Assembly: GCA_964016885.1 (NCBI GenBank)
Contig: OZ024745.1
Coordinates: 91,140,001-91,204,000 of the forward strand
Source of the DNA: Eledone cirrhosa
Taxonomy: Eukaryota
Direction of reading: 5' to 3'
DNA: 64,000 nucleotides
The notes beneath the pieces were generated by a model. That model ran no database searches. It worked only from the letters and a program-made list of their open reading frames with translations, and was not told the origin of the DNA. This document shows, in pieces, positions 434 to 60,440 of this stretch; the first letter of the stretch is position 1; every line of letters begins with the position of its first letter. A program made the position numbers and the translations under genes.

Positions 434-764
434 GAGGCACATGGCTTAGTGGTTAGAGCATTGGCCTTGCAATCGAAAGATTGTGAGTTCAATTCTCAGA
501 CCGGGTGATGTGTTGTTTCCTTCAGCAAGACACTTTATTTCACATTGCTCCAGTTTAATCAGCTGTAGAAATGAGATGATAGGGACTGGGGTGCATATCA
601 TTCCACTGCAAAGTGGTCGTGGAGGTGCCACGGCAAAAAAGCACCCAGCACTCACTGTAAAAATGAGGTTGGTGTTAGGAAGGGCATCCAGCTGTAGAAA
701 TCAAGCCAGAATCAGTTCCTGTCTCACCCTTGCAAGCAGGGAAAAAGAGGACATAAAATGAAAT
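434..764 (+). mobile_element. tRNA-derived SINE family A (CORE-like middle, RTE-derived tail)
   Basis: A box TGGCTTAGTGG, B box GAGTTCAATTC, CORE-like ttccttgagcaagacacttta region, tail acccttgcaagcagggaaaaag shared with the RTE LINEs here; near-identical copies at 3521 and 26709. Confidence 0.9.
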
Positions 765-2570: not shown

Positions 2571-3014
2571 AATATAGTGTGGCACATAGTTATATAGGAA
2601 AACAATTGAACAGTGTAATACACACTTAATCTCTGCTATACATATGCAAATACACATGCCTTCATCCATACACAAACACACACTTTCGCATACAGACTGG
2701 AACATACATGCTTACAGAGAACATCACCAGGAATGAAGGAAAGTTTATTAATAGCTTTCAAAAGCCCATGATCAATACAAAACACTAGTAGCCACCATGT
2801 GACTAACTCAACTAGTGCATACAACAGGCACCTACAGCTGCTTCTTGGACATATTCAATCATTTACATTCCGACACACACAAATACACATTTATATAAAT
2901 GAATATATGCATCCATCCATGCATTTGTGTGTGTGTGTATATGTATATATATATATATATATGTGTGTTATGGAATACTGTTAGCTTCTCGCTAAAACAA
3001 TTTCTATTCCTTTC

Positions 3015-3016
<2 letters not shown>

Positions 3017-3099
<83 letters not shown>

Positions 3100-3113
3100 A
3101 ACATATACATATA

Positions 3114-3175
<62 letters not shown>

Positions 3176-3235
3176 AACATATACATATACATGGGTGAGT
3201 GTGTGTGTATATATATAATATGATATATATATATC
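3017..3235. repeat. (TA)n/(TG)n microsatellite
   Basis: Direct reading. Confidence 0.95.
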
Positions 3236-3383
3236 ATCATCATCATTTTTACATTCATTTTTCCACGGTGGCATGAGTTGGACATGTCCTTTTTATTATA
3301 TATATATATCTATTCAATAATATTAAGACTAAAAAGTGAATGTTGTTACTCTGGAGTTTTGCCTGGTTATCACAGTCATCAGT

Positions 3384-3433
3384 TCTTGTCTGATGACTGT
3401 GTGATAAACAGGCAAATCTCCAGAGTAACAAGA
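3384..3433 (+). ncRNA. Degenerate type I hammerhead ribozyme in a head-to-head inverted dimer (3311-3462)
   Basis: TCTTGT-CTGATGA-CTGT..ACAG-GCAAAT-CTC CA GAG-TA-ACAAGA: 6-bp stem I, intact CUGAUGA, altered GAAA box. Confidence 0.55.
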
Positions 3434-3520
3434 CTCAATTTTAGCCTTTATATTATTGAATATTAAAACTCTACTTCACTATTGAGAACTTCTTTCTCTC
3501 AATTGTCAACTACATATGGA

Positions 3521-3850
3521 TATGGCTTAGTGGTTAGAGCATTGGCCTTGCAATCGAAAGGTTGTGAGTTCAATTCTCAGACCGGGTGATGTGTTGTTTC
3601 CTTGAGCAAGACACTTTATTTCACATTGCTCCAGTTTACTCAGCTGTAGAAATCAGATGATAGGGACTGGGGTCCCTATCATTCCACTGCAAAGTGGTCG
3701 TGGAGGCGCCACGGCAAAAAAAGCACCCAGCACTCACTGTAAATGAAGTTGGTGTTAGGAAGGGCATCCAGCTGTAGAAATCAAGCCAGCATCAATTCCC
3801 GTCCCACCCTTGCAAGCAGGGAAAAAGCGGACGTAAAATGAAATGATGAT
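3521..3850 (+). mobile_element. tRNA-derived SINE family A
   Basis: Same A/B boxes, CORE-like region and RTE tail as 434-764. Confidence 0.9.
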
Positions 3851-3974
3851 ATACACACACACACACATGTATGGAGTGTATCTGTATGTATGTATGTATG
3901 TATGTATGTATATATATCCATGTTAGCATGGAAAAATGGATGCTAAATGGTGATGATAATAATGATTAATGATG

Positions 3975-4935
3975 ATTTAACGACCTTTTTTCCATGCTTG
4001 CATGAGCTAGATGGGTTGCCACGTTATGTGACAAGTTGGGTCTGGTGATCACATCTTGCTTTTATGTATCTGTATTTTGACTTGGCTCCTATGACTGGAT
4101 ACCCTTCCTAACACCAATCATTTTAGTGTTGACTGCGTGCTTTTTATTGTGGCAGCCAAATGACCACCTAATAGATGGACTGAGTTTTTTTCGTCATGTC
4201 GCAAGTACTGCCACCTTACATGTTGGAATGAGTGCTCTCTTCTTGTGTTACCAACACAACCACTTTATGGGGTGGACTTAGTGCATTTTTTCTCATGTCA
4301 TCAGCTTGACCACTATACAAGGTGAACTGGGAGCCTCTTGTCATGTTACCTGCACAATTACATTAGAGTAGATTGGTTGTCATTTTGTCATACATGGTGG
4401 ACTATATGCTTTTGTTGTGACACCAAATTGCCATACAGGGTGTACAAATTGATTTTATATAATCATCATTATCATCATTTAACAGCAATTTTCAATGCTT
4501 GCATAGTTTAGATGGGTCGTGACTTCATGAAGCTAGCCAGGTCAGATAACCATGTCTTTCTCATAGGTTAGATGAGTTGTCACATTCTGAGACTAAACAA
4601 GCAAAAGATCAGTCTACTCTGTCTTTCGTGTCTTGCTCATACTTTCCATTTTGGCATGGTTTCTATGATGTTTATGACTGGATACTCTTCTTAATGCCAA
4701 CCATTTAATGGCATGTGCTGAATTCATTTCTTTATGGAACCAACACTATTATTTGACAGCATGGACTGGGTGCTTTTTTCATGATACCAGTACTACCACT
4801 TTACGTGTGGGCTGTGTGCATTTTATTGTGACACCATTACTATCAGTTTACAGAGTGGCTTTAGTGCATTTTAACATAACTCCAACATTTCCATATTGGC
4901 TGCTAATATTGGATAGAGTGCTTTGTGGTATTTGT
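3975..4935 (-). mobile_element. Two old family A-related SINEs with expanded internal ~45-50 bp tandem unit
   Basis: Tails (catgcttgcat) near 3990 and 4495, each followed by several decayed ccactttaca..gtggactgggtgcttttt units. Confidence 0.6.
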
Positions 4936-18839: not shown

Positions 18840-19145
18840 TATATTATAAAGAGTCAGGACCTGAAGCCTGAGCTCTTGCTGTTTCAACAGCTAGTTCCAG
18901 ACTGTTTGCTGAAAGGCTCCATAGTTGACTGGCTGTATCATCAGGGGGTGTGGTTTGTCCATATAAGGGTATATGTTGTTCATCCAATTGTAAATTTTCT
19001 AGTTTGGAACTAGCTGTTGAAACAGCAAAAGCTCAGTCGTCAGGTTCCGACTCGTTATAATATAGCCATACTGTATTACACCAAGTATTGAGTACTCTGT
19101 TGAGTAAAAGTCTAACTAGTTTCTACCTGGTTCTATCCTCATTTA
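18840..19145. mobile_element. HHR-bearing short element family C, inverted arrangement
   Basis: 64-bp inverted repeats 18840-18903/19001-19064; minus strand reads CCCC-CTGATGA-TACAGCCAGT..ACTAGCTGTT-GAAA; gtattgagtactctg motif downstream. Confidence 0.65.
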
Positions 19146-19152
19146 TATATAA

Positions 19153-26708: not shown

Positions 26709-27106
26709 GGAGGCACATGGCTTAGTGGTTAGAGCATTGGCCTTGCAATCGAAAGGTTGTGAGTTCAATTCTCAGGCCGGGTCATGTGTTGTTTCCTTGA
26801 GCAAGACACTTTATTTCACATTGCTCCAGTTTACTCAGCTGTAGAAATGAGATGATAGGGACTGGGGTCCCTATCATTCCACTGCAAAGTGGTCGTGGAG
26901 GTGCCATGGCAAAAAAGCACCCAGCCCACACTGTAAAGTGGACGTGGAGGTGCCACGGCAAAAAAGCACCCAGCACTCACTGTAAATGAGGTTGGTGTTA
27001 GGAAGGGCATCCAGCTGTAGAAATCAAACCAGAATCAGTTCCCATCCCACCCTTGCAAGCAAGGAAAAAGCGGACGTAAAATGAAATGATGATGATGATG
27101 ATGATG
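26709..27106 (+). mobile_element. SINE family A with duplicated internal unit
   Basis: Full head to (GAT)n tail; gtggaggtgcca..gcacccagc..ctgtaaa occurs twice. Confidence 0.9.
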
Positions 27107-28226: not shown

Positions 28227-29430
28227 CTAGCTGGCCCGTCCGGCTGGCGCCTGGCTAGGTATACCAGCATTTTATCTTTTCAGGAATCCCCCCTCCACTG
28301 CAGTGCAAAGATACCGCCCTCTCAAGTCAGCAAGGAGGGGGGGGGGGGGGCTAACGTGCTCTGATGTTGGGCTTGAATAGTTTTTAGGATTCCCCAGTTC
28401 AGCAGCCAGTACGTTAAAGAAAATTGATAGTTACAACAATGAAGGCTGAACAGAGAACACATTTTTTAACAAACAATAATTTGTACAACCATAATGGAAA
28501 TTCCAAGTAACAGAAAATATTTAAATTACATTGTTAGAGCCTCAGAGTACACAATATTTTTTGTTCGGTCCTCCGGAGCAAAGATGAAGAGATTGTTTGG
28601 CGAGTTCACCCTAGAGCATCCTACATACAATTGACCATGGGAGAATCACTGATTTCGTAGCTCATCTCATGGAGAAGCTTTGTAGACGTTGACCTCTGGA
28701 CACTCCTGTCAGGAGCAGGTAAGCTGTAGTGACTTAGAGGCCTACCACCAATCTCCAGGACACTGTTTTCAAGACAAATGAGTGCCTCATTGAAAACGAC
28801 ATGTATGTTACATTTGGATTGTGTCTGCGTGTGCGGTGGAGGATGTCCTCAGCTAGACTTTCATTGTGGTTGTTCCACAGTGTGAGAGGGTCAGCGAGAT
28901 CGCAGTTGTGCAGCATAATAGCAAAAGGTTTTCGCAGCTGAGAAGGGACTTTAGCAGTGGCTGCTTCTTGCAGGGTGAGGTGCCAATGGCTGTAATCGTG
29001 TAACATACCACGCATCTGGCAAGCCAAATGGTAAGTGGAACATTGATGGCCATTGATGGTTCTCAGATCTTGGAAAGACTGTGGTCCTCTAACCTTGAAC
29101 AGTAACAATAATGATAAGCTGTCTGTGCTTTTGTGAAATAAATAGGTTTTCGTGTATGCAAAAATATCTGTACACAAATATATATATTAAAATAACAGAT
29201 TAAAGTTTGAGCAAAGAATCGCTGCTTTCACCCTTAATGGGATCTTCTGAAACTAAAAAAAATCCATCTGTGAACGCAGAAGTAAATATTTCAAAAACGT
29301 TATCTAATGCAGACAGCCAGCTATGTATCTATCTAAAAAGACAGACTAAGAAAAAGAAGGGAATGTTGTGCGACATCATACGAAAAAGTGGTTTGTTACC
29401 TACATACGGCCGTCATCTCCATTAAACATA
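28227..29430 (-). mobile_element. Internally deleted Helitron with Rep/Helicase pseudogene fragments
   Basis: 28790-29110 VRGPQSFQDLRTING..LAC..RGML..PSQLR..LW (Rep-helicase linker); 28526-28663 FSHGQLYVGCSRV..TKNIVYSEAL (PIF1-type helicase motif VI and C-terminus); 3' hairpin plus CTAG at 28227. 5' limit approximate. Confidence 0.9.
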
Positions 29431-30432: not shown

Positions 30433-30877
30433 TCATCATCATCATCATCATCATCATTTTACGTCCGCTTTTCCCTGCTTGCAAGGGTGGGACGGGTCTT
30501 ATTCAGCACAGCATCTCTCCACTCGTCACGGTCCCTCGTCATCTCCACCGTGAGCTTCAATGATCTGAGGTCTGTTCTCACCACCTCCGCCCATGTTTTT
30601 CGTGGTCTACCTCTACCACATCTTCCTTCAACTGGCATTTCCTGGCACTTCTTCACCCATCGGTCATCCTCCATGCGCATCACATGTCCATACCACCTCA
30701 GTCTCCTCTCCCGTACACTACATTCTATCCCTCTCAGACACAGTTCCTCTCTCAACACATTTATGCTGGGTCGTTCACGCACATTTACACTGCACATCCA
30801 ACGGAGCATGCTTGCCTCAATTCTCTCCAGCCGTCGCATATCCTCTGCGGTTGCTGCCCATGTCTCACTACCATGCA

Positions 30878-30878
<1 letters not shown>
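30433..30878 (-). mobile_element. Young RTE LINE 3' fragment
   Basis: Open frame RRLRWYGHVMRMEDDRWVKK..GRGRPRKTW; (GAT)n tail; inserted in (TA)n. Confidence 0.9.
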
Positions 30879-30911
<33 letters not shown>

Positions 30912-30914
<3 letters not shown>

Positions 30915-31007
30915 CCTTGATAAGTTCAGCTAGATTCCTGCCGTTCTAATACTGCTGGCTTAGTTCGGATCTAGCTGTCGATACGGCCAGAGCTCAGCCG
31001 TCGGGGT
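30912..31007 (+). ncRNA. Type I hammerhead ribozyme, all three stems intact, core mutated (family C)
   Basis: ACCCC/GGGGT stem I, CAGCTAGAT/ATCTAGCTG stem II, CGGC/GCCG stem III, GUC site; core reads TTGATAA and GATA. Confidence 0.65.
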
Positions 31008-31044
31008 CCTGACTCTTTTCCCTATATATATATATATATATATC

Positions 31045-37307: not shown

Positions 37308-38510
37308 TTAAACTCAGAATAGAAAGAACTAAAACAAATACCATAAGGCACTGAAATGATTTTGCTGCTCATGCCTTCAACTGTTATTTTATTTATCATT
37401 CCTCCAGAACACAAAGAACCAGAATATATACAGCAAGGTATTTCATCCAATGCTTAAATGCTTCTGTTAAATCACTGGCCTATTTTTTTTTTTTTTTTTT
37501 TTTAACTATTTCAAATCTTAGATACCTTTCAGTTTTTGTATCCACACAGTACAGAATGGGTAGATCAACAAAGTATAGAGTATGAATGAACATCTTATAC
37601 TTTCAGTCTAATTTATTCTGTATTTAATTTTGTTCCTTAAGATATAGATAGAAATAGAATGAAACTTCAGAGGAAACAACATATCAAGTCACTGAACAAT
37701 TGCTGATCAGAATATATATTTCTTTGTTTGTATTTGTGCAATATGTCAGGAAATATGAAATTTAATTTTGAAAACACTAACTTGTGTACTTTTATGTATG
37801 AACAGTTGAACAGTTGAAAGTAATTAAGTTCGAATATGAGAAAGTTAATATATGTACTGGTAAATGTATTTGCGCATTTGATATATATAAGAAAATCAAT
37901 AACTGAGAAAATATGTGTGTATTATGTATGTATGTATGTATCAACATATTTGTTTGCCAATCTGTATGGATAACAATTAGTAGCAAAGTCTGTTTATGTG
38001 TGTAGCATGTTATTCATGTGTAACTCCCTGACCATACACTGTATCATTAATACTGAGGCTTTATCAGTCCAATATCAATTTCTTTAATATTGATATTGAA
38101 CAAACAGAACAGATTATTGAAATGCTTTTCAATAAACCCTTTTTCTAGTATTCTAATTGACTCAATATTTGATTTCTGTACAGCATGTATAGTTAAATAT
38201 TGTTTGGCACTATGTTATTGAGTACATGAATATATTCTATTAACACCAAGTGATATTTAGTTAAATATTCAATATATAAATTTCTCATGTTGCTTATACG
38301 GTTAATCAAATCAATGTATGTACATTTATTGAGTAAATAGCAAACACTTAGAAACACTTATTTTCTTTATATAATAGAAAAAATATGACAAAATAAGTCA
38401 CTAAAGATTAATCCTTTGACTACCAAGCTTTTAAACATTTTATAGCCTCTACACAGGAATCCTGGTGCATTTATTGAGACATTCTTTCCATCTTTGTCTG
38501 ACTAAAATGT

Positions 38511-39413
38511 ACCAACTACACTGCTATGAACACTTTCATCCTCACCACTAACTACACTGCTATGAACACTTTCATCCTCACCACTAACTACACTGCTATG
38601 AACACTTTCTTCCTCACCACTAACTACACTGCTATGAACACTTTCATCCTCACCACTAACTACACTGCTATGAGCATTCTCATCTTCACCACTAACTACA
38701 CTGCTATGAACACTTTCTTCCTCACCACTAACTACACTGCTATGAACACTTTCATCCTCACCACTAACTACACTGCTATGAACACTTTCATCCTCACCAC
38801 TAACTACACTGCTATGAACACTTTCATCCTCACCACTAACTACACTGCTATGAACACTTTCATCCTCACCACTAACTACACTGCTATGAACACTTTCTTC
38901 CTCACCACTAACTACACTGCTATGAACACTTTCATCCTCACCACTAACTACACTGCTATGAGCATTCTCATCTTCACCACTAACTAGACTGCTATGAACA
39001 CTTTCTTCCTCACCACTAACTACACTGCTATGAACACTTTCATCCTCACCACTAACTACACTGCTATGAACACTTTCATCCTCACCACTAACTACACTGC
39101 TATGAACACTTTCTTCCTCACCACTAACTACACTGCTATGAACACTTTCATCCTCACCACTAACTACACTGCTATGAGCATTCTCATCTTCACCACTAAC
39201 TACACTGCTATGAACACTTTCTTCCTCACCACTAACTACACTGCTATGAACACTTTCATCCTCACCACTAACTACACTGCTATGAACACTTTCATCCTCA
39301 CCACTAACTACACTGCTATGAACACTTTCATCCTCACCACTAACTACACTGCTATGAACACTTTCATCCTCACCACTAACTACACTGCTATGAGCATTCT
39401 CATCTTCACCACT
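38511..39413. repeat. 36-bp minisatellite, about 25 copies
   Basis: Unit ACTACACTGCTATGAACACTTTCATCCTCACCACTA with three recurring variants. Confidence 0.97.
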
Positions 39414-40078
39414 CAGTTTAGAATAATTTTTACTTTCAAAATCCTTATTATTTCCTTAATAATCAACTTTTCACTTTACTCATTAGAATCTTATATTTGT
39501 GGTTACTACTTGATCAGTTGATAGTTTTCTCTGGGTTATTTTTTATGATGTAGAAATATCAGAAATGTTCATACAAAGTAGACATATTTCTTGTGGACTC
39601 TTCAGTTGTGTCATAAACGAGATACCTTCTTGGTATTGGTGATCTATATTTTAAACACACTCTACAGTCTGTAAAGTGGTTGGTGATAGGAAATGTATCC
39701 AGCCAAAGAAAACCTACTAAATAAAGGGTGAGGAGGAGTCTTCAGTTGTGTCAAAGAATACAATAAAGCATTCTATCTGGCATTTCATTAACACTACCCA
39801 TTCACTGCCCTGAAAATGTTAACCATAGTACTCATGGTATACCACAGGAATATAATATTATCAATATCAACCATTAATACATTTTATTATGCCAGTTTTA
39901 CTTATCTTTATTTAAGACTTGAACACTTGCATGTTTCCATTAATATAATATTAATAGATTTGATATCTCCCCAAATTCTACATATATTGGAAGCTCCACA
40001 AGTAATTGTCTTTATTTTTAAATATTTATTCACAATCTTTGCTCATCAAAGGAATATTTAGATAAACAAGTGTTTTAA

Positions 40079-56416: not shown

Positions 56417-56818
<402 letters not shown>

Positions 56819-56819
56819 A

Positions 56820-56952
56820 CAAAGAGGGTGTGGTAAGATACCAGGTGGAGCATAATGCACCAGAGTACTCAATACTTAGGGTAGTAGTCGGATCTAGCTG
56901 TCGGGGTTCTGATTCTTTTCCTATATATATATGATATATATATATATATATA

Positions 56953-56994
<42 letters not shown>

Positions 56995-57220
56995 TAAAAT
57001 AACAGATTAAAGTTTAAGCAAAGAATCGCTGCTTTCACCCTTAACGGGATCTTCTGAGGTTAGTTTCAGAAGATCCCATTAAGGGTGAAAGCAGCGATTC
57101 TTTGTTTAAACTTTAATCTGTTATTTTAATAAATATTTGCTCTACGGTTCTTATATATTTGATATATATTTATCCTTATCGAGCCCTCTTTGGATTTTAG
57201 TCTTAAAATTTATTATTATT

Positions 57221-57271
<51 letters not shown>

Positions 57272-57545
57272 CCGTCGAAACGGCTTCAGCTCTGCCGTCG
57301 GGGTCATACTTTTTCCTATATATATATATATATATATATATATGCATGCACATATGTGTAATATATATATATTTTAATATAGAAATGGCTTTTTACAGGA
57401 CTGGAACTGTTTCATTCAAAGGAAATCATCCTTCAATTGAAACAGTTCTAGTCCTGTAGAAACCATTTGTATATAAAAAAATGTATACTGTGTTATGTAT
57501 TGAGTAACTTACTTACTGTGGTTACACCAGATTGAAATTGGGGTA

Positions 57546-60007: not shown

Positions 60008-60100
60008 TTACTTAATTTTCATGATTCCTAATAATTAGCATATCAAATTAGATGAGAGGAAAATGTTTATGAACACAAGAACAAGAGCTGCTTTTAGATA

Positions 60101-60440
60101 TAGTTGAAATAGGCAATCTGAAATATAGGTGTAGTTGAAATAGGCAATCTGAAATATAGGTGTAGTTGAAATAGGCAATCTGAAATATAGGTATAGTTGA
60201 AATAGGCAGTCTGAATTATAGGTGTAGTTGAAATAGGCAGTCTGAAATATAGGTATAGTTGAAATAGGCAGGCTGAAATATAGGTGTAGTTGAAATAGGC
60301 AGGCTGAAATATAGGTGTAGTTGAAATAGGCAGGCTGAAATATAGGTGTAGTTGAAATAGGCAGGCTGAAATATATAGTTGAAATAGGCCGGCTGAAATA
60401 TATAGTTGAAATAGGCAGGCTGAAATATATAGTTGAAATA
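60101..60440. repeat. 31-bp minisatellite, about 11 copies (last ones 27 bp)
   Basis: TAGTTGAAATAGGCAGGCTGAAATATAGGTG. Confidence 0.95.

What the first reader, a model, noticed from the sequence alone, without database searches (positions are those of the whole stretch)
30912..31007. A larger GC-rich hammerhead reconstructable from complementary decayed copies
This copy keeps all stems (ACCCC/GGGGT; CAGCTAGAT/ATCTAGCTG around a ~30-nt loop; CGGC/GCCG; GUC site) but has core changes. The minus-strand copy at 18856-18950 keeps CTGATGA and GAAA but has damaged stems. 57271-57305 keeps GAAA-CGGC..GCCG-TC-GGGGT perfectly. Combined consensus: ACCCC CUGAUGA nn CAGCUAG..CUAGCUG UC GAAA CGGC n9 GCCG UC GGGGU. 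This has a true stem III, unlike minimal Penelope hammerheads, so it could act as a monomer (inference).
Basis: partly seen in the sequence, partly recalled or inferred. Interest (0 to 1): 0.75.

Follow-up and report, generated by a model that had tools for sequence, protein, structure and literature searches.

The report
Penelope hammerhead leaving genomic cut footprints
This is a likely dead copy of a hammerhead-shaped RNA motif from the end of a very abundant Penelope-like jumping gene, and many sister copies stop exactly at its predicted cut site, which likely records self-cutting in living cells, although most copies run through that site and so probably came from uncut RNA.

Summary
The stems are real, but the "complementary decayed copies" are three different subfamilies of one Hydra-type Penelope-like element (PLE), so the proposed consensus is a chimera. 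UUGAUAA in this copy is not decay. It is the family's U3-A8 core (67 of 72 relatives; 4,212 pattern matches genome-wide versus 22 for C3-G8), a variant already published. The only private core lesion is GAAA to GAUA. Helix III is real (5 bp) and longer than in published Hydra hammerheads. Its 9-nt loop keeps the palindrome GAGCUC in 8 of 8 subfamilies, so monomer and dimer folds are both predicted. New here: of 100 head-to-head insertion junctions, 29 have both arms ending exactly at the predicted cut. Among the 48 with extra bases, 24 left and 28 right arms end there, an indirect footprint of cleavage in vivo. Most copies read through the site, and a subfamily with a C3·A8 mismatch reached at least 914 copies, so cutting looks dispensable. 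The scan noted this motif type before in this genome and a similar junction signal in another genome. New variant of a known kind; no cleavage was measured.

The parts
30879..30911 (.). (TA)n target microsatellite, 5' side; the copy is 5'-truncated into it at a TA microhomology
   Evidence: relatives continue upstream into a ~950-nt 3' UTR and ORF
30912..30916 (+). helix I, 5' strand
30917..30923 (+). core 5' strand U3-U4-G5-A6-U7-A8-A9: the U3-A8 covariant of the C3-G8 pair, fixed in subfamily A
   Evidence: 67 of 72 relatives; variant described in PMC4209133 and PMC3088659
30924..30979 (+). helix II: G10.1-C11.1, small internal loop, 9-bp stem, 33-nt loop
   Evidence: compensatory changes between subfamilies at three pairs
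30980..30983 (+). core 3' strand, GATA instead of GAAA; A14 at 30982 is changed, so this copy is likely inactive
   Evidence: 68 of 69 relatives have A
30983..31001 (+). helix III, 5 bp with a 9-nt loop (30988-30996) holding the palindrome GAGCTC (30990-30995)
   Evidence: hexamer invariant in 8 of 8 subfamily majorities, flanking loop bases all vary; dimer fold
31002..31003 (+). predicted cleavage site, GUC|G
   Evidence: junction pile-up at this position in young subfamilies
31003..31022 (+). helix I 3' strand and 3' end, up to the first reverse-transcription start (about +17)
31023..31043 (.). (TA)n target microsatellite, 3' side
18840..18975 (-). copy of the older subfamily B (C3-G8 core, heavy CpG decay); one arm of a head-to-head insertion
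19001..19150 (+). second, tail-bearing arm of the same B insertion (3' half of the motif plus tail)
57268..57319 (+). 5'-truncated fragment of subfamily C between (TA)n runs
56813..56922 (.). A-type two-armed insertion: inverted tail, then a direct arm lacking GAAA and helix III
30459..30878 (-). RTE-like LINE fragment beside the insertion (surroundings, not part of the motif)
   Evidence: the RTE label is recalled from the peptide, not from a library hit

Best explanation
The 30912-31007 motif is a 5'-truncated, likely dead copy of the type I hammerhead in the pseudo-LTR of a Hydra-type Penelope-like retrotransposon, and intact family members likely self-cleave at GUC|G in a minority of transcripts in vivo, as a side reaction that retrotransposition probably does not need. 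Shown: the element has one RT-GIY-YIG ORF and a 3,547-nt unit with the hammerhead in both pLTRs; insertions sit in (TA)n as two head-to-head arms, one ending about 17 nt and the other about 99 nt downstream of the cut site; junction ends pile up at the cut site. Inferred: the protein primes both target strands at those two internal RNA sites. If the RNA is uncut (or religated), cDNA runs through the hammerhead into the 3' UTR and ORF. If it has been cut, the RT runs off the new 5' end at the G after GUC, adds A/T, and leaves a ~120-bp stub. Helix III is predicted to close as a hairpin (monomer) or to pair through its palindromic loop with a second copy (double hammerhead). Which form cuts in vivo is untested.
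For: Element: L121 holds ORF 2726-4879 (718 aa) and hammerheads at 2450 and 5997 plus an inverted copy. A-subfamily copies carry the related EN ~950 nt upstream (64-74% identity). Core: N7 takes U, G, A and C across subfamilies while U4, G5, A6, A9 and GAAA stay. Helix II has compensatory changes at three pairs. Two priming sites: the sense arm ends at +97 to +102 in 28 of 30 loci, matching the two internal RT starts shown for the Anolis PLE (PMC11167929). Cut footprint: first 100 of 731 head-to-head junctions. Of 48 with extra bases, left arm at offset 0 in 24, right arm in 28, both in 19 (binomial p 1e-18; 3e-11 under a conservative 8-position null). A further 10 are blunt 0/0 joins. The first extra base after a left arm at 0 is A 15, T 8, C 1, which is not a cap signature. 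Unbiased truncation sample (100 of 1,513): 16 at offset 0 versus 0-7 at the 19 other offsets from -15 to +4 (p 4e-7). Dispensability: thousands of arms run through the site; a C3·A8 subfamily has 914 pattern-intact copies and the C3 allele also appears in contigs of runs X1 and X4; catalytic mutants do not block insertion in vitro for the Anolis element.
Against: No cleavage or RNA data were obtained. The stop site is the 5' edge of a GGGG run and of helix I, so a sequence or structure cause is not excluded; my G-run control had only one other run and 22 arm ends. The 10 blunt joins can also be read as 2-nt CG microhomology. All sampled junctions are the first 100 on contig C1. Helices I and III show no compensatory change, and the count of pairs changed on both sides (5) does not exceed shuffles (248 of 500); two of the five come from a one-column shift of B rows. 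The 3-8 pair is not kept: U3·G8 and C3·A8 lineages amplified. The predicted monomer fold is poor in several copies tested (E 0.00-0.13, F 0.01-0.20, one C copy 0.01-0.26, G 0.23-0.30). 0/0 junctions also occur with the tail type that includes the C3·A8 subfamily (6 of 28 versus 15 of 37 in D; p 0.12). No helix I/II tertiary contact was identified.
Confidence: 0.72

Rival explanations
1. The ribozyme is catalytically vestigial. The fold persists as a protein-binding or priming-associated structure, and the pile-up at offset 0 comes from RT stalling or slipping at the G-run or helix I edge, or from a transcription start there.
For: Amplified C3·A8 (914) and U3·G8 (about 10 of 28) lineages; weak predicted folding in E, F and G; cleavage not needed in vitro and no RNA-seq ends at the cut site for the Anolis element.
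Against: A stall would be expected at +5 (before helix I) or -1/-2 (before helix III), not at 0. Among junctions with extra bases, left arms end at -1 in 4 and at -2 in 0, versus 24 at 0. Only 1 of 24 shows the C expected from a cap. The youngest and largest lineages keep a complete U3-A8 core with free N7.
Confidence: 0.15
2. Cleavage is productive. Both pLTR hammerheads cut, the 3,547-nt unit is ligated into a circle, and rolling-circle reverse transcription from +17 or +99 makes the longer-than-unit insertions (the model of Cervera and de la Pena).
For: Cleavage footprint. Full-length copies extend 163, 695 and 934 nt beyond one unit, so cDNA crossed the site twice. Both priming sites lie downstream of the cut, as a circle would need.
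Against: Uncut tandem transcripts explain the same structures. A predicted-inactive C3·A8 lineage amplified. Of 30 loci sampled for a start at offset 0, none runs on into the ORF.
Confidence: 0.1
3. One reading: one canonical CUGAUGA/GAAA hammerhead that decayed differently in the three copies and acts only as a monomer.
For: Subfamily B has C3-G8 (21 of 29) and is the oldest (median divergence 0.20); monomer fold predicted for A.
Against: Three subfamilies; U3-A8 fixed in A; 4,212 versus 22 matches; conserved loop palindrome and a more stable dimer.
Confidence: 0.03

Closest known systems
Hydra-clade PLEs and their hammerheads (Craig et al. 2021, PMC8557442; passages, section 11 and supplement parts 1-2 of 59 read)
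   Same: Single ORF with RT and C-terminal GIY-YIG, DKT, CxCx5C linker, CxxC and CxH, (TA)n targets, type I hammerhead near the 3' end.
   Different: All 26 listed Hydra motifs have C3-G8 and a 3-4-bp helix III with a 1-3-nt loop. Three metagenomic relatives (36-37% identity, one shared motif) are also of that type. Here: U3-A8, 5-bp helix III with a 9-nt loop, 33-nt loop II, 3.5-kb unit.
U3-A8 minimal hammerheads of Schistosoma Cercyon PLEs (Cervera and de la Pena 2014, PMC4209133; parts 1-2 of 4 read, supplements not read)
   Same: U3-A8 core in a pLTR, long helix II, short helix I, palindromic helix III region, mostly dispersed truncated copies.
   Different: Those lack helix III and were inactive as single motifs. 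The paper reports a large helix III only for fungal and protist PLEs.
PAc (Poseidon, Anolis) hammerhead and two-site internal priming (Frangieh et al. 2024, PMC11167929; parts 1-2 of 4 read)
   Same: Two RT start sites downstream of the hammerhead define a tail; both target strands are extended; uncut RNA is the main template.
   Different: Different clade; minimal, protein-assisted ribozyme; tail 30-40 nt versus about 82 nt here. They found no RNA-seq ends at the cut site, whereas here genomic junctions pile up there.
Metazoan non-LTR retrozymes (PMC7229834, PMC7761336; passages read)
   Same: Type I hammerheads; invertebrate ones can cleave as monomers.
   Different: Retrozymes are non-coding 150-400-nt tandem repeats; this motif belongs to an autonomous 3.5-kb element, and I found no short tandem unit in the loci read.
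Retroviral dimerization-initiation hairpin (HIV-1 DIS; PMC4066764, passages read)
   Same: Nine-nucleotide loop with a six-nucleotide palindrome flanked by two plus one bases; kissing and extended-duplex forms.
   Different: Analogy of layout only. The flanking bases here are purines only in subfamily B, the hairpin is part of a ribozyme, and dimerization is untested.

Membership tests
Type I hammerhead ribozyme | Three helices around the core, open at helix I | tested here: met
Type I hammerhead ribozyme | Core C3-U4-G5-A6-N7-G8-A9 / G12-A13-A14, A15.1-U16.1, H17, with a 3-8 Watson-Crick pair | tested here: met
   Met for the family as U3-A8, a published natural covariant. Not met by the window copy itself (A14 changed) or by the C3·A8 subfamily.
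Type I hammerhead ribozyme | Match to an Rfam hammerhead model | tested here: not met
   No hit in the window at E<=1 or for the intact young copy at E<=10.
Type I hammerhead ribozyme | Tertiary contact between helices I and II | not tested
   None identified; helix I is short and the site is not evident.
Type I hammerhead ribozyme | Site-specific self-cleavage | not testable with these tools
   Only the indirect junction footprint.
Penelope-like element (EN+) | Single ORF with RT and C-terminal GIY-YIG, pLTRs, inverted 5'-truncated copy, optional tail | tested here: met
   Pfam gave no hit on the ORF, so domains rest on motifs and homologues
Hydra clade of PLEs | DKT; CxCx5C linker; CxxC and CxH around the conserved E and N | tested here: met
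   DKT 116, CNCPDRSIC 571, CKH 697; CNLC read in the translation
Hydra clade of PLEs | N-terminal RWK motif | tested here: inconclusive
   RWR at the position
Hydra clade of PLEs | Insertion into (TA)n | tested here: met
Hydra clade of PLEs | Generally shorter than 3 kb (a tendency in the paper, not a diagnostic) | tested here: not met
   unit 3,547 nt
Hydra clade of PLEs | RT phylogeny with published Hydra families; absence of CCHH | not tested
   No tree or alignment to published families was made; hence 'Hydra-type'.
Minimal PLE hammerhead | No or very short helix III, obligate dimer | tested here: not met
   5-bp helix III, predicted pairing 0.75-0.96 in A, C and D copies
Non-LTR retrozyme | Short non-coding tandem unit | tested here: not met
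   Unit is 3.5 kb and coding; short copies are truncated arms

The most novel reading that the evidence does not exclude
Helix III has been enlarged into a dimer-initiation hairpin (2 + palindromic 6 + 1 loop, the layout of the retroviral kissing loop) that pairs two template RNAs, or the two pLTR copies of one RNA. Cleavage would then occur in the double-hammerhead form and also in trans between subfamilies. This would explain why the hexamer is invariant while the 3-8 pair has passed through all four states, why the C3·A8 lineage can still leave stubs at the cut site, and why both arms of an insertion often stop at the cut together. The genome would thus hold a countable record of ribozyme cleavage inside the retrotransposition complex.
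Probability: 0.22. Interest if true: 0.78.

Novelty: new variant of a known kind. Interest (0 to 1): 0.54.

Why it matters
[quoted passage not shown] Here a young, intact family of thousands of copies gives an indirect in vivo footprint of cutting at the predicted base. It also gives a natural series of core states (C3-G8, U3-A8, U3·G8, C3·A8) with different ages and folds. That makes two questions directly testable from sequence and simple assays: whether cleavage happens in the germline, and whether the element needs it. The motif class, the U3-A8 variant and two-site priming are already known.

Tried and rejected
Rfam search of the window and of an intact copy: no hammerhead hit. Pfam on the ORF: none. 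First guess of the Neptune clade was dropped after reading the Hydra diagnostics. I first took the 7 CUGAGGA copies as double mutants proving 3-8 covariation. Rejected: a 914-copy C3·A8 subfamily exists, and about 4 such single mutants are expected from the 18-in-4,212 rate; 6 of the 7 have the matching helix II. Expression: no RNA holder listed, which is no evidence either way; laid contigs cannot show ends. The G-run control was underpowered. Tail-type comparison of 0/0 junctions was not significant. Some copies failed my regex in the folding scripts and were left out (6 of 13, 2 of 12). Two of the 22 C3-G8 matches were classed from the listing only. Przybilski and Hammann 2007 and Lunse et al. 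2017 are not held, so the effect of a C3·A8 mismatch rests on other single mutants of this pair and on recall. No covariance model was built. Scrambled-order hammerheads noted elsewhere in this genome are other families.

Full report
Observation. The motif at 30912-31007 is in the sequence as described and folds as a three-way junction. On its own it is not far from shuffles (z -1.43), and Rfam misses it. The window is G000:C5:91140001-91204000 in a 3.0-Gb animal genome, whose species I did not determine. A DNA search gave 2,838 candidates, of which 40 were scored.

The three copies are three subfamilies. Blast-defined full-length motifs from the loci held (132 distinct) split into A (72, includes 30912), B (29, includes 18856), C (26; the 57271 fragment matches it best) and D (5). 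Positions 3 and 8 read U/A in 67 of 72 A, C/G in 21 of 29 B, U/A in 22 of 26 C and 5 of 5 D. The window copy departs from the A majority at four places, and only 30982 (A14) is private and in the core. Exact genome-wide patterns give U3-A8 4,212, C3·A8 914, U3·G8 28 (about 10 form a subfamily E) and C3-G8 22 (13 inverted-arm artefacts, 7 CUGAGGA, 1 B, 1 chance); every backwards control is 0. The patterns need intact CpG-rich stems, so old subfamilies such as B are undercounted. Median pairwise divergence is B 0.20 (n 10), A 0.11 (33), E 0.067 (5), C 0.054 (15), F (C3·A8) 0.053 (11) and D 0.0 (19). U3-A8 is a published natural covariant (PMC4209133, parts 1-2 of 4; PMC3088659, passages).

What carries it. 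Homology runs upstream through a long 3' UTR into a GIY-YIG endonuclease, which has 60,052 first-look candidates. L121 is a complete young copy: a 718-aa ORF, hammerheads in both pLTRs 3,547 nt apart, and an inverted truncated copy. Its motifs (RWR, DKT, CxCx5C, CxxC, CxH) and (TA)n targets fit the Hydra clade (PMC8557442 section 11). No tree was made, and the unit is longer than the usual <3 kb. The 26 published Hydra hammerheads have C3-G8 and a 3-4-bp helix III with a 1-3-nt loop. So do three metagenomic relatives sharing one motif. The enlarged helix III and the U3-A8 core therefore look lineage-specific.

Structure. On 36 copies, 89.3% of cells pair versus 84.6% in shuffles (0 of 500), and the covariation score is 0.165 versus 0.099 (0 of 500). 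The number of pairs changed on both sides is not above shuffles (248 of 500). Three real compensatory pairs lie in helix II; two apparent ones come from a one-column shift of B rows; helix III and, apart from that artefact, helix I show none. The sequences are related, so these are not probabilities. N7 varies freely while the rest of the core holds. The predicted probability of all three helices as a monomer is 0.16-0.86 for the window copy, depending on flanks. It is 0.31-0.68 for D, 0.00-0.82 and 0.01-0.26 for two C copies, and at most 0.30 for E, F and G; in F and G an alternative hairpin often captures GAAA. Loop III keeps GAGCUC in 8 of 8 subfamily majorities, while loop positions 1, 2 and 9 all change. 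The homodimer MFE for A, C and D is a double hammerhead, 13.9-16.5 kcal/mol below two monomers at standard state. Monomer and dimer are thus both open. No compensatory change in the palindrome was seen, so selection on it is suggested, not shown.

Insertion anatomy. Copies end either about 17 nt or about 99 nt downstream of the cut site. In head-to-head insertions one arm has each end (sense arm at +97 to +102 in 28 of 30; also L121, L132, L134). This matches two internal RT starts and extension of both target strands, shown for the Anolis PLE (PMC11167929, parts 1-2 of 4). Templates that gave hammerhead-containing copies were therefore uncut or religated at GUC|G.

Footprint of cleavage. If some templates were cut, cDNA should run off at the G after GUC. 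An exact pattern for starts at that G gave 332 matches, some being one-base indels. In an unbiased sample of truncations between -15 and +7 (first 100 of 1,513), 16 start at offset 0. The other 19 offsets from -15 to +4 have 0-7 each (p 4e-7). The 28 at +5 to +7 were left out of the test because chance matches inflate them. In short head-to-head junctions (first 100 of 731, all on C1), 48 have extra bases between the arms. Of these, 24 left arms and 28 right arms end at offset 0 and 19 have both (p 1e-18, or 3e-11 with an 8-position null). Ten more are blunt 0/0 joins that CG microhomology could also explain, and 18 have an arm reaching -2 or beyond. The first extra base is A 15, T 8, C 1, as expected from non-templated addition at an uncapped end (inference). 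A stall at helix I or III predicts other offsets. A G-run effect is not excluded. A back-of-envelope estimate from these counts puts stops at the cut at roughly a tenth of tail-bearing arms.

Mechanism. Shown: element anatomy, core states, two 3' ends, and the junction peak. Inferred: cleavage at GUC|G in a minority of templates gives abortive ~120-bp stubs, while productive copies come from uncut RNA. The amplified C3·A8 lineage, whose C3 allele is also seen in contigs of runs X1 and X4, argues that an intact core is not required. This agrees with the in vitro result that catalytic mutants still insert. A productive circle cannot be excluded: full-length copies exceed one unit by 163, 695 and 934 nt. 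Loop III has the nine-base, six-base-palindrome layout of the HIV-1 dimer-initiation loop (PMC4066764, passages); this is an analogy only.

Novelty. Known: PLE hammerheads, U3-A8, palindromic helix III, two-site priming. I found no paper reporting a 5-bp helix III with a 9-nt palindromic loop in an animal PLE, genomic junctions at a PLE hammerhead cut site, or an amplified C3·A8 lineage. Lunse et al. 2017 and Przybilski and Hammann 2007 could not be read, and the supplements of PMC4209133 were not read; they may hold such variants. Also seen: passages of PMC6765202, PMC7761336, PMC7229834 and PMC7151607 and part 1 of 5 of bioRxiv 10.64898/2026.07.22.740005. Earlier scan notes describe a large U3-A8 motif of this kind in this genome and a junction signal in another genome (seen after my test); they are unchecked leads. 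Verdict: new variant of a known kind; interest 0.54.

Noticed in passing
G000, e.g. L193, L194, L199: A subfamily with a C3·A8 mismatch in the hammerhead core and a predicted alternative hairpin over GAAA amplified to at least 914 pattern-intact copies.
   Followed up: partly
L163, L168-L170, L172, L178, L179, L181, L182, L187: Small subfamily E with a U3·G8 wobble core; with A, B and F the lineage shows all four states of the 3-8 pair.
   Followed up: partly
L121:2726-4879 and L122-L134: Near-identical young copies with long ORFs (up to about 790 codons between stops) suggest recent or ongoing activity of this Hydra-type PLE.
   Followed up: partly
window 56813-56922; also L347, L361, L380: Copies with internal deletions between the GCYGTC/CGGC repeats that flank GAAA and helix III, perhaps by template slip.
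   Followed up: no
offsets about -36 to -45: A second cluster of arm ends in loop II near the GTCCAGAA word; cause unexplained (microhomology or a structural stall).
   Followed up: no
L135:6541 (+), L070:232 (+): Other hammerheads with C3-G8 core and short helix III beside these elements, apparently from other PLE families.
   Followed up: no
G000:C2:276988324, 276994560, 277001088: Three starts at the cut site with the same 5 upstream bases, spaced 6.2-6.5 kb apart, probably a local tandem duplication.
   Followed up: no
window 38367-39566 and 60033-60437: Tandem arrays with 36-nt and 31-nt units.
   Followed up: no
window 434-661, 3515-3742, 26710-26937: Three copies of a tRNA-like ~230-nt repeat, probably a SINE.
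   Followed up: no
window 56995-57130: A long near-perfect inverted repeat centred near 57062, also seen beside a copy in L051.
   Followed up: no
window 28734-29186 (-): Peptide resembling a Helitron-type replication protein (resemblance recalled, not tested).
   Followed up: no
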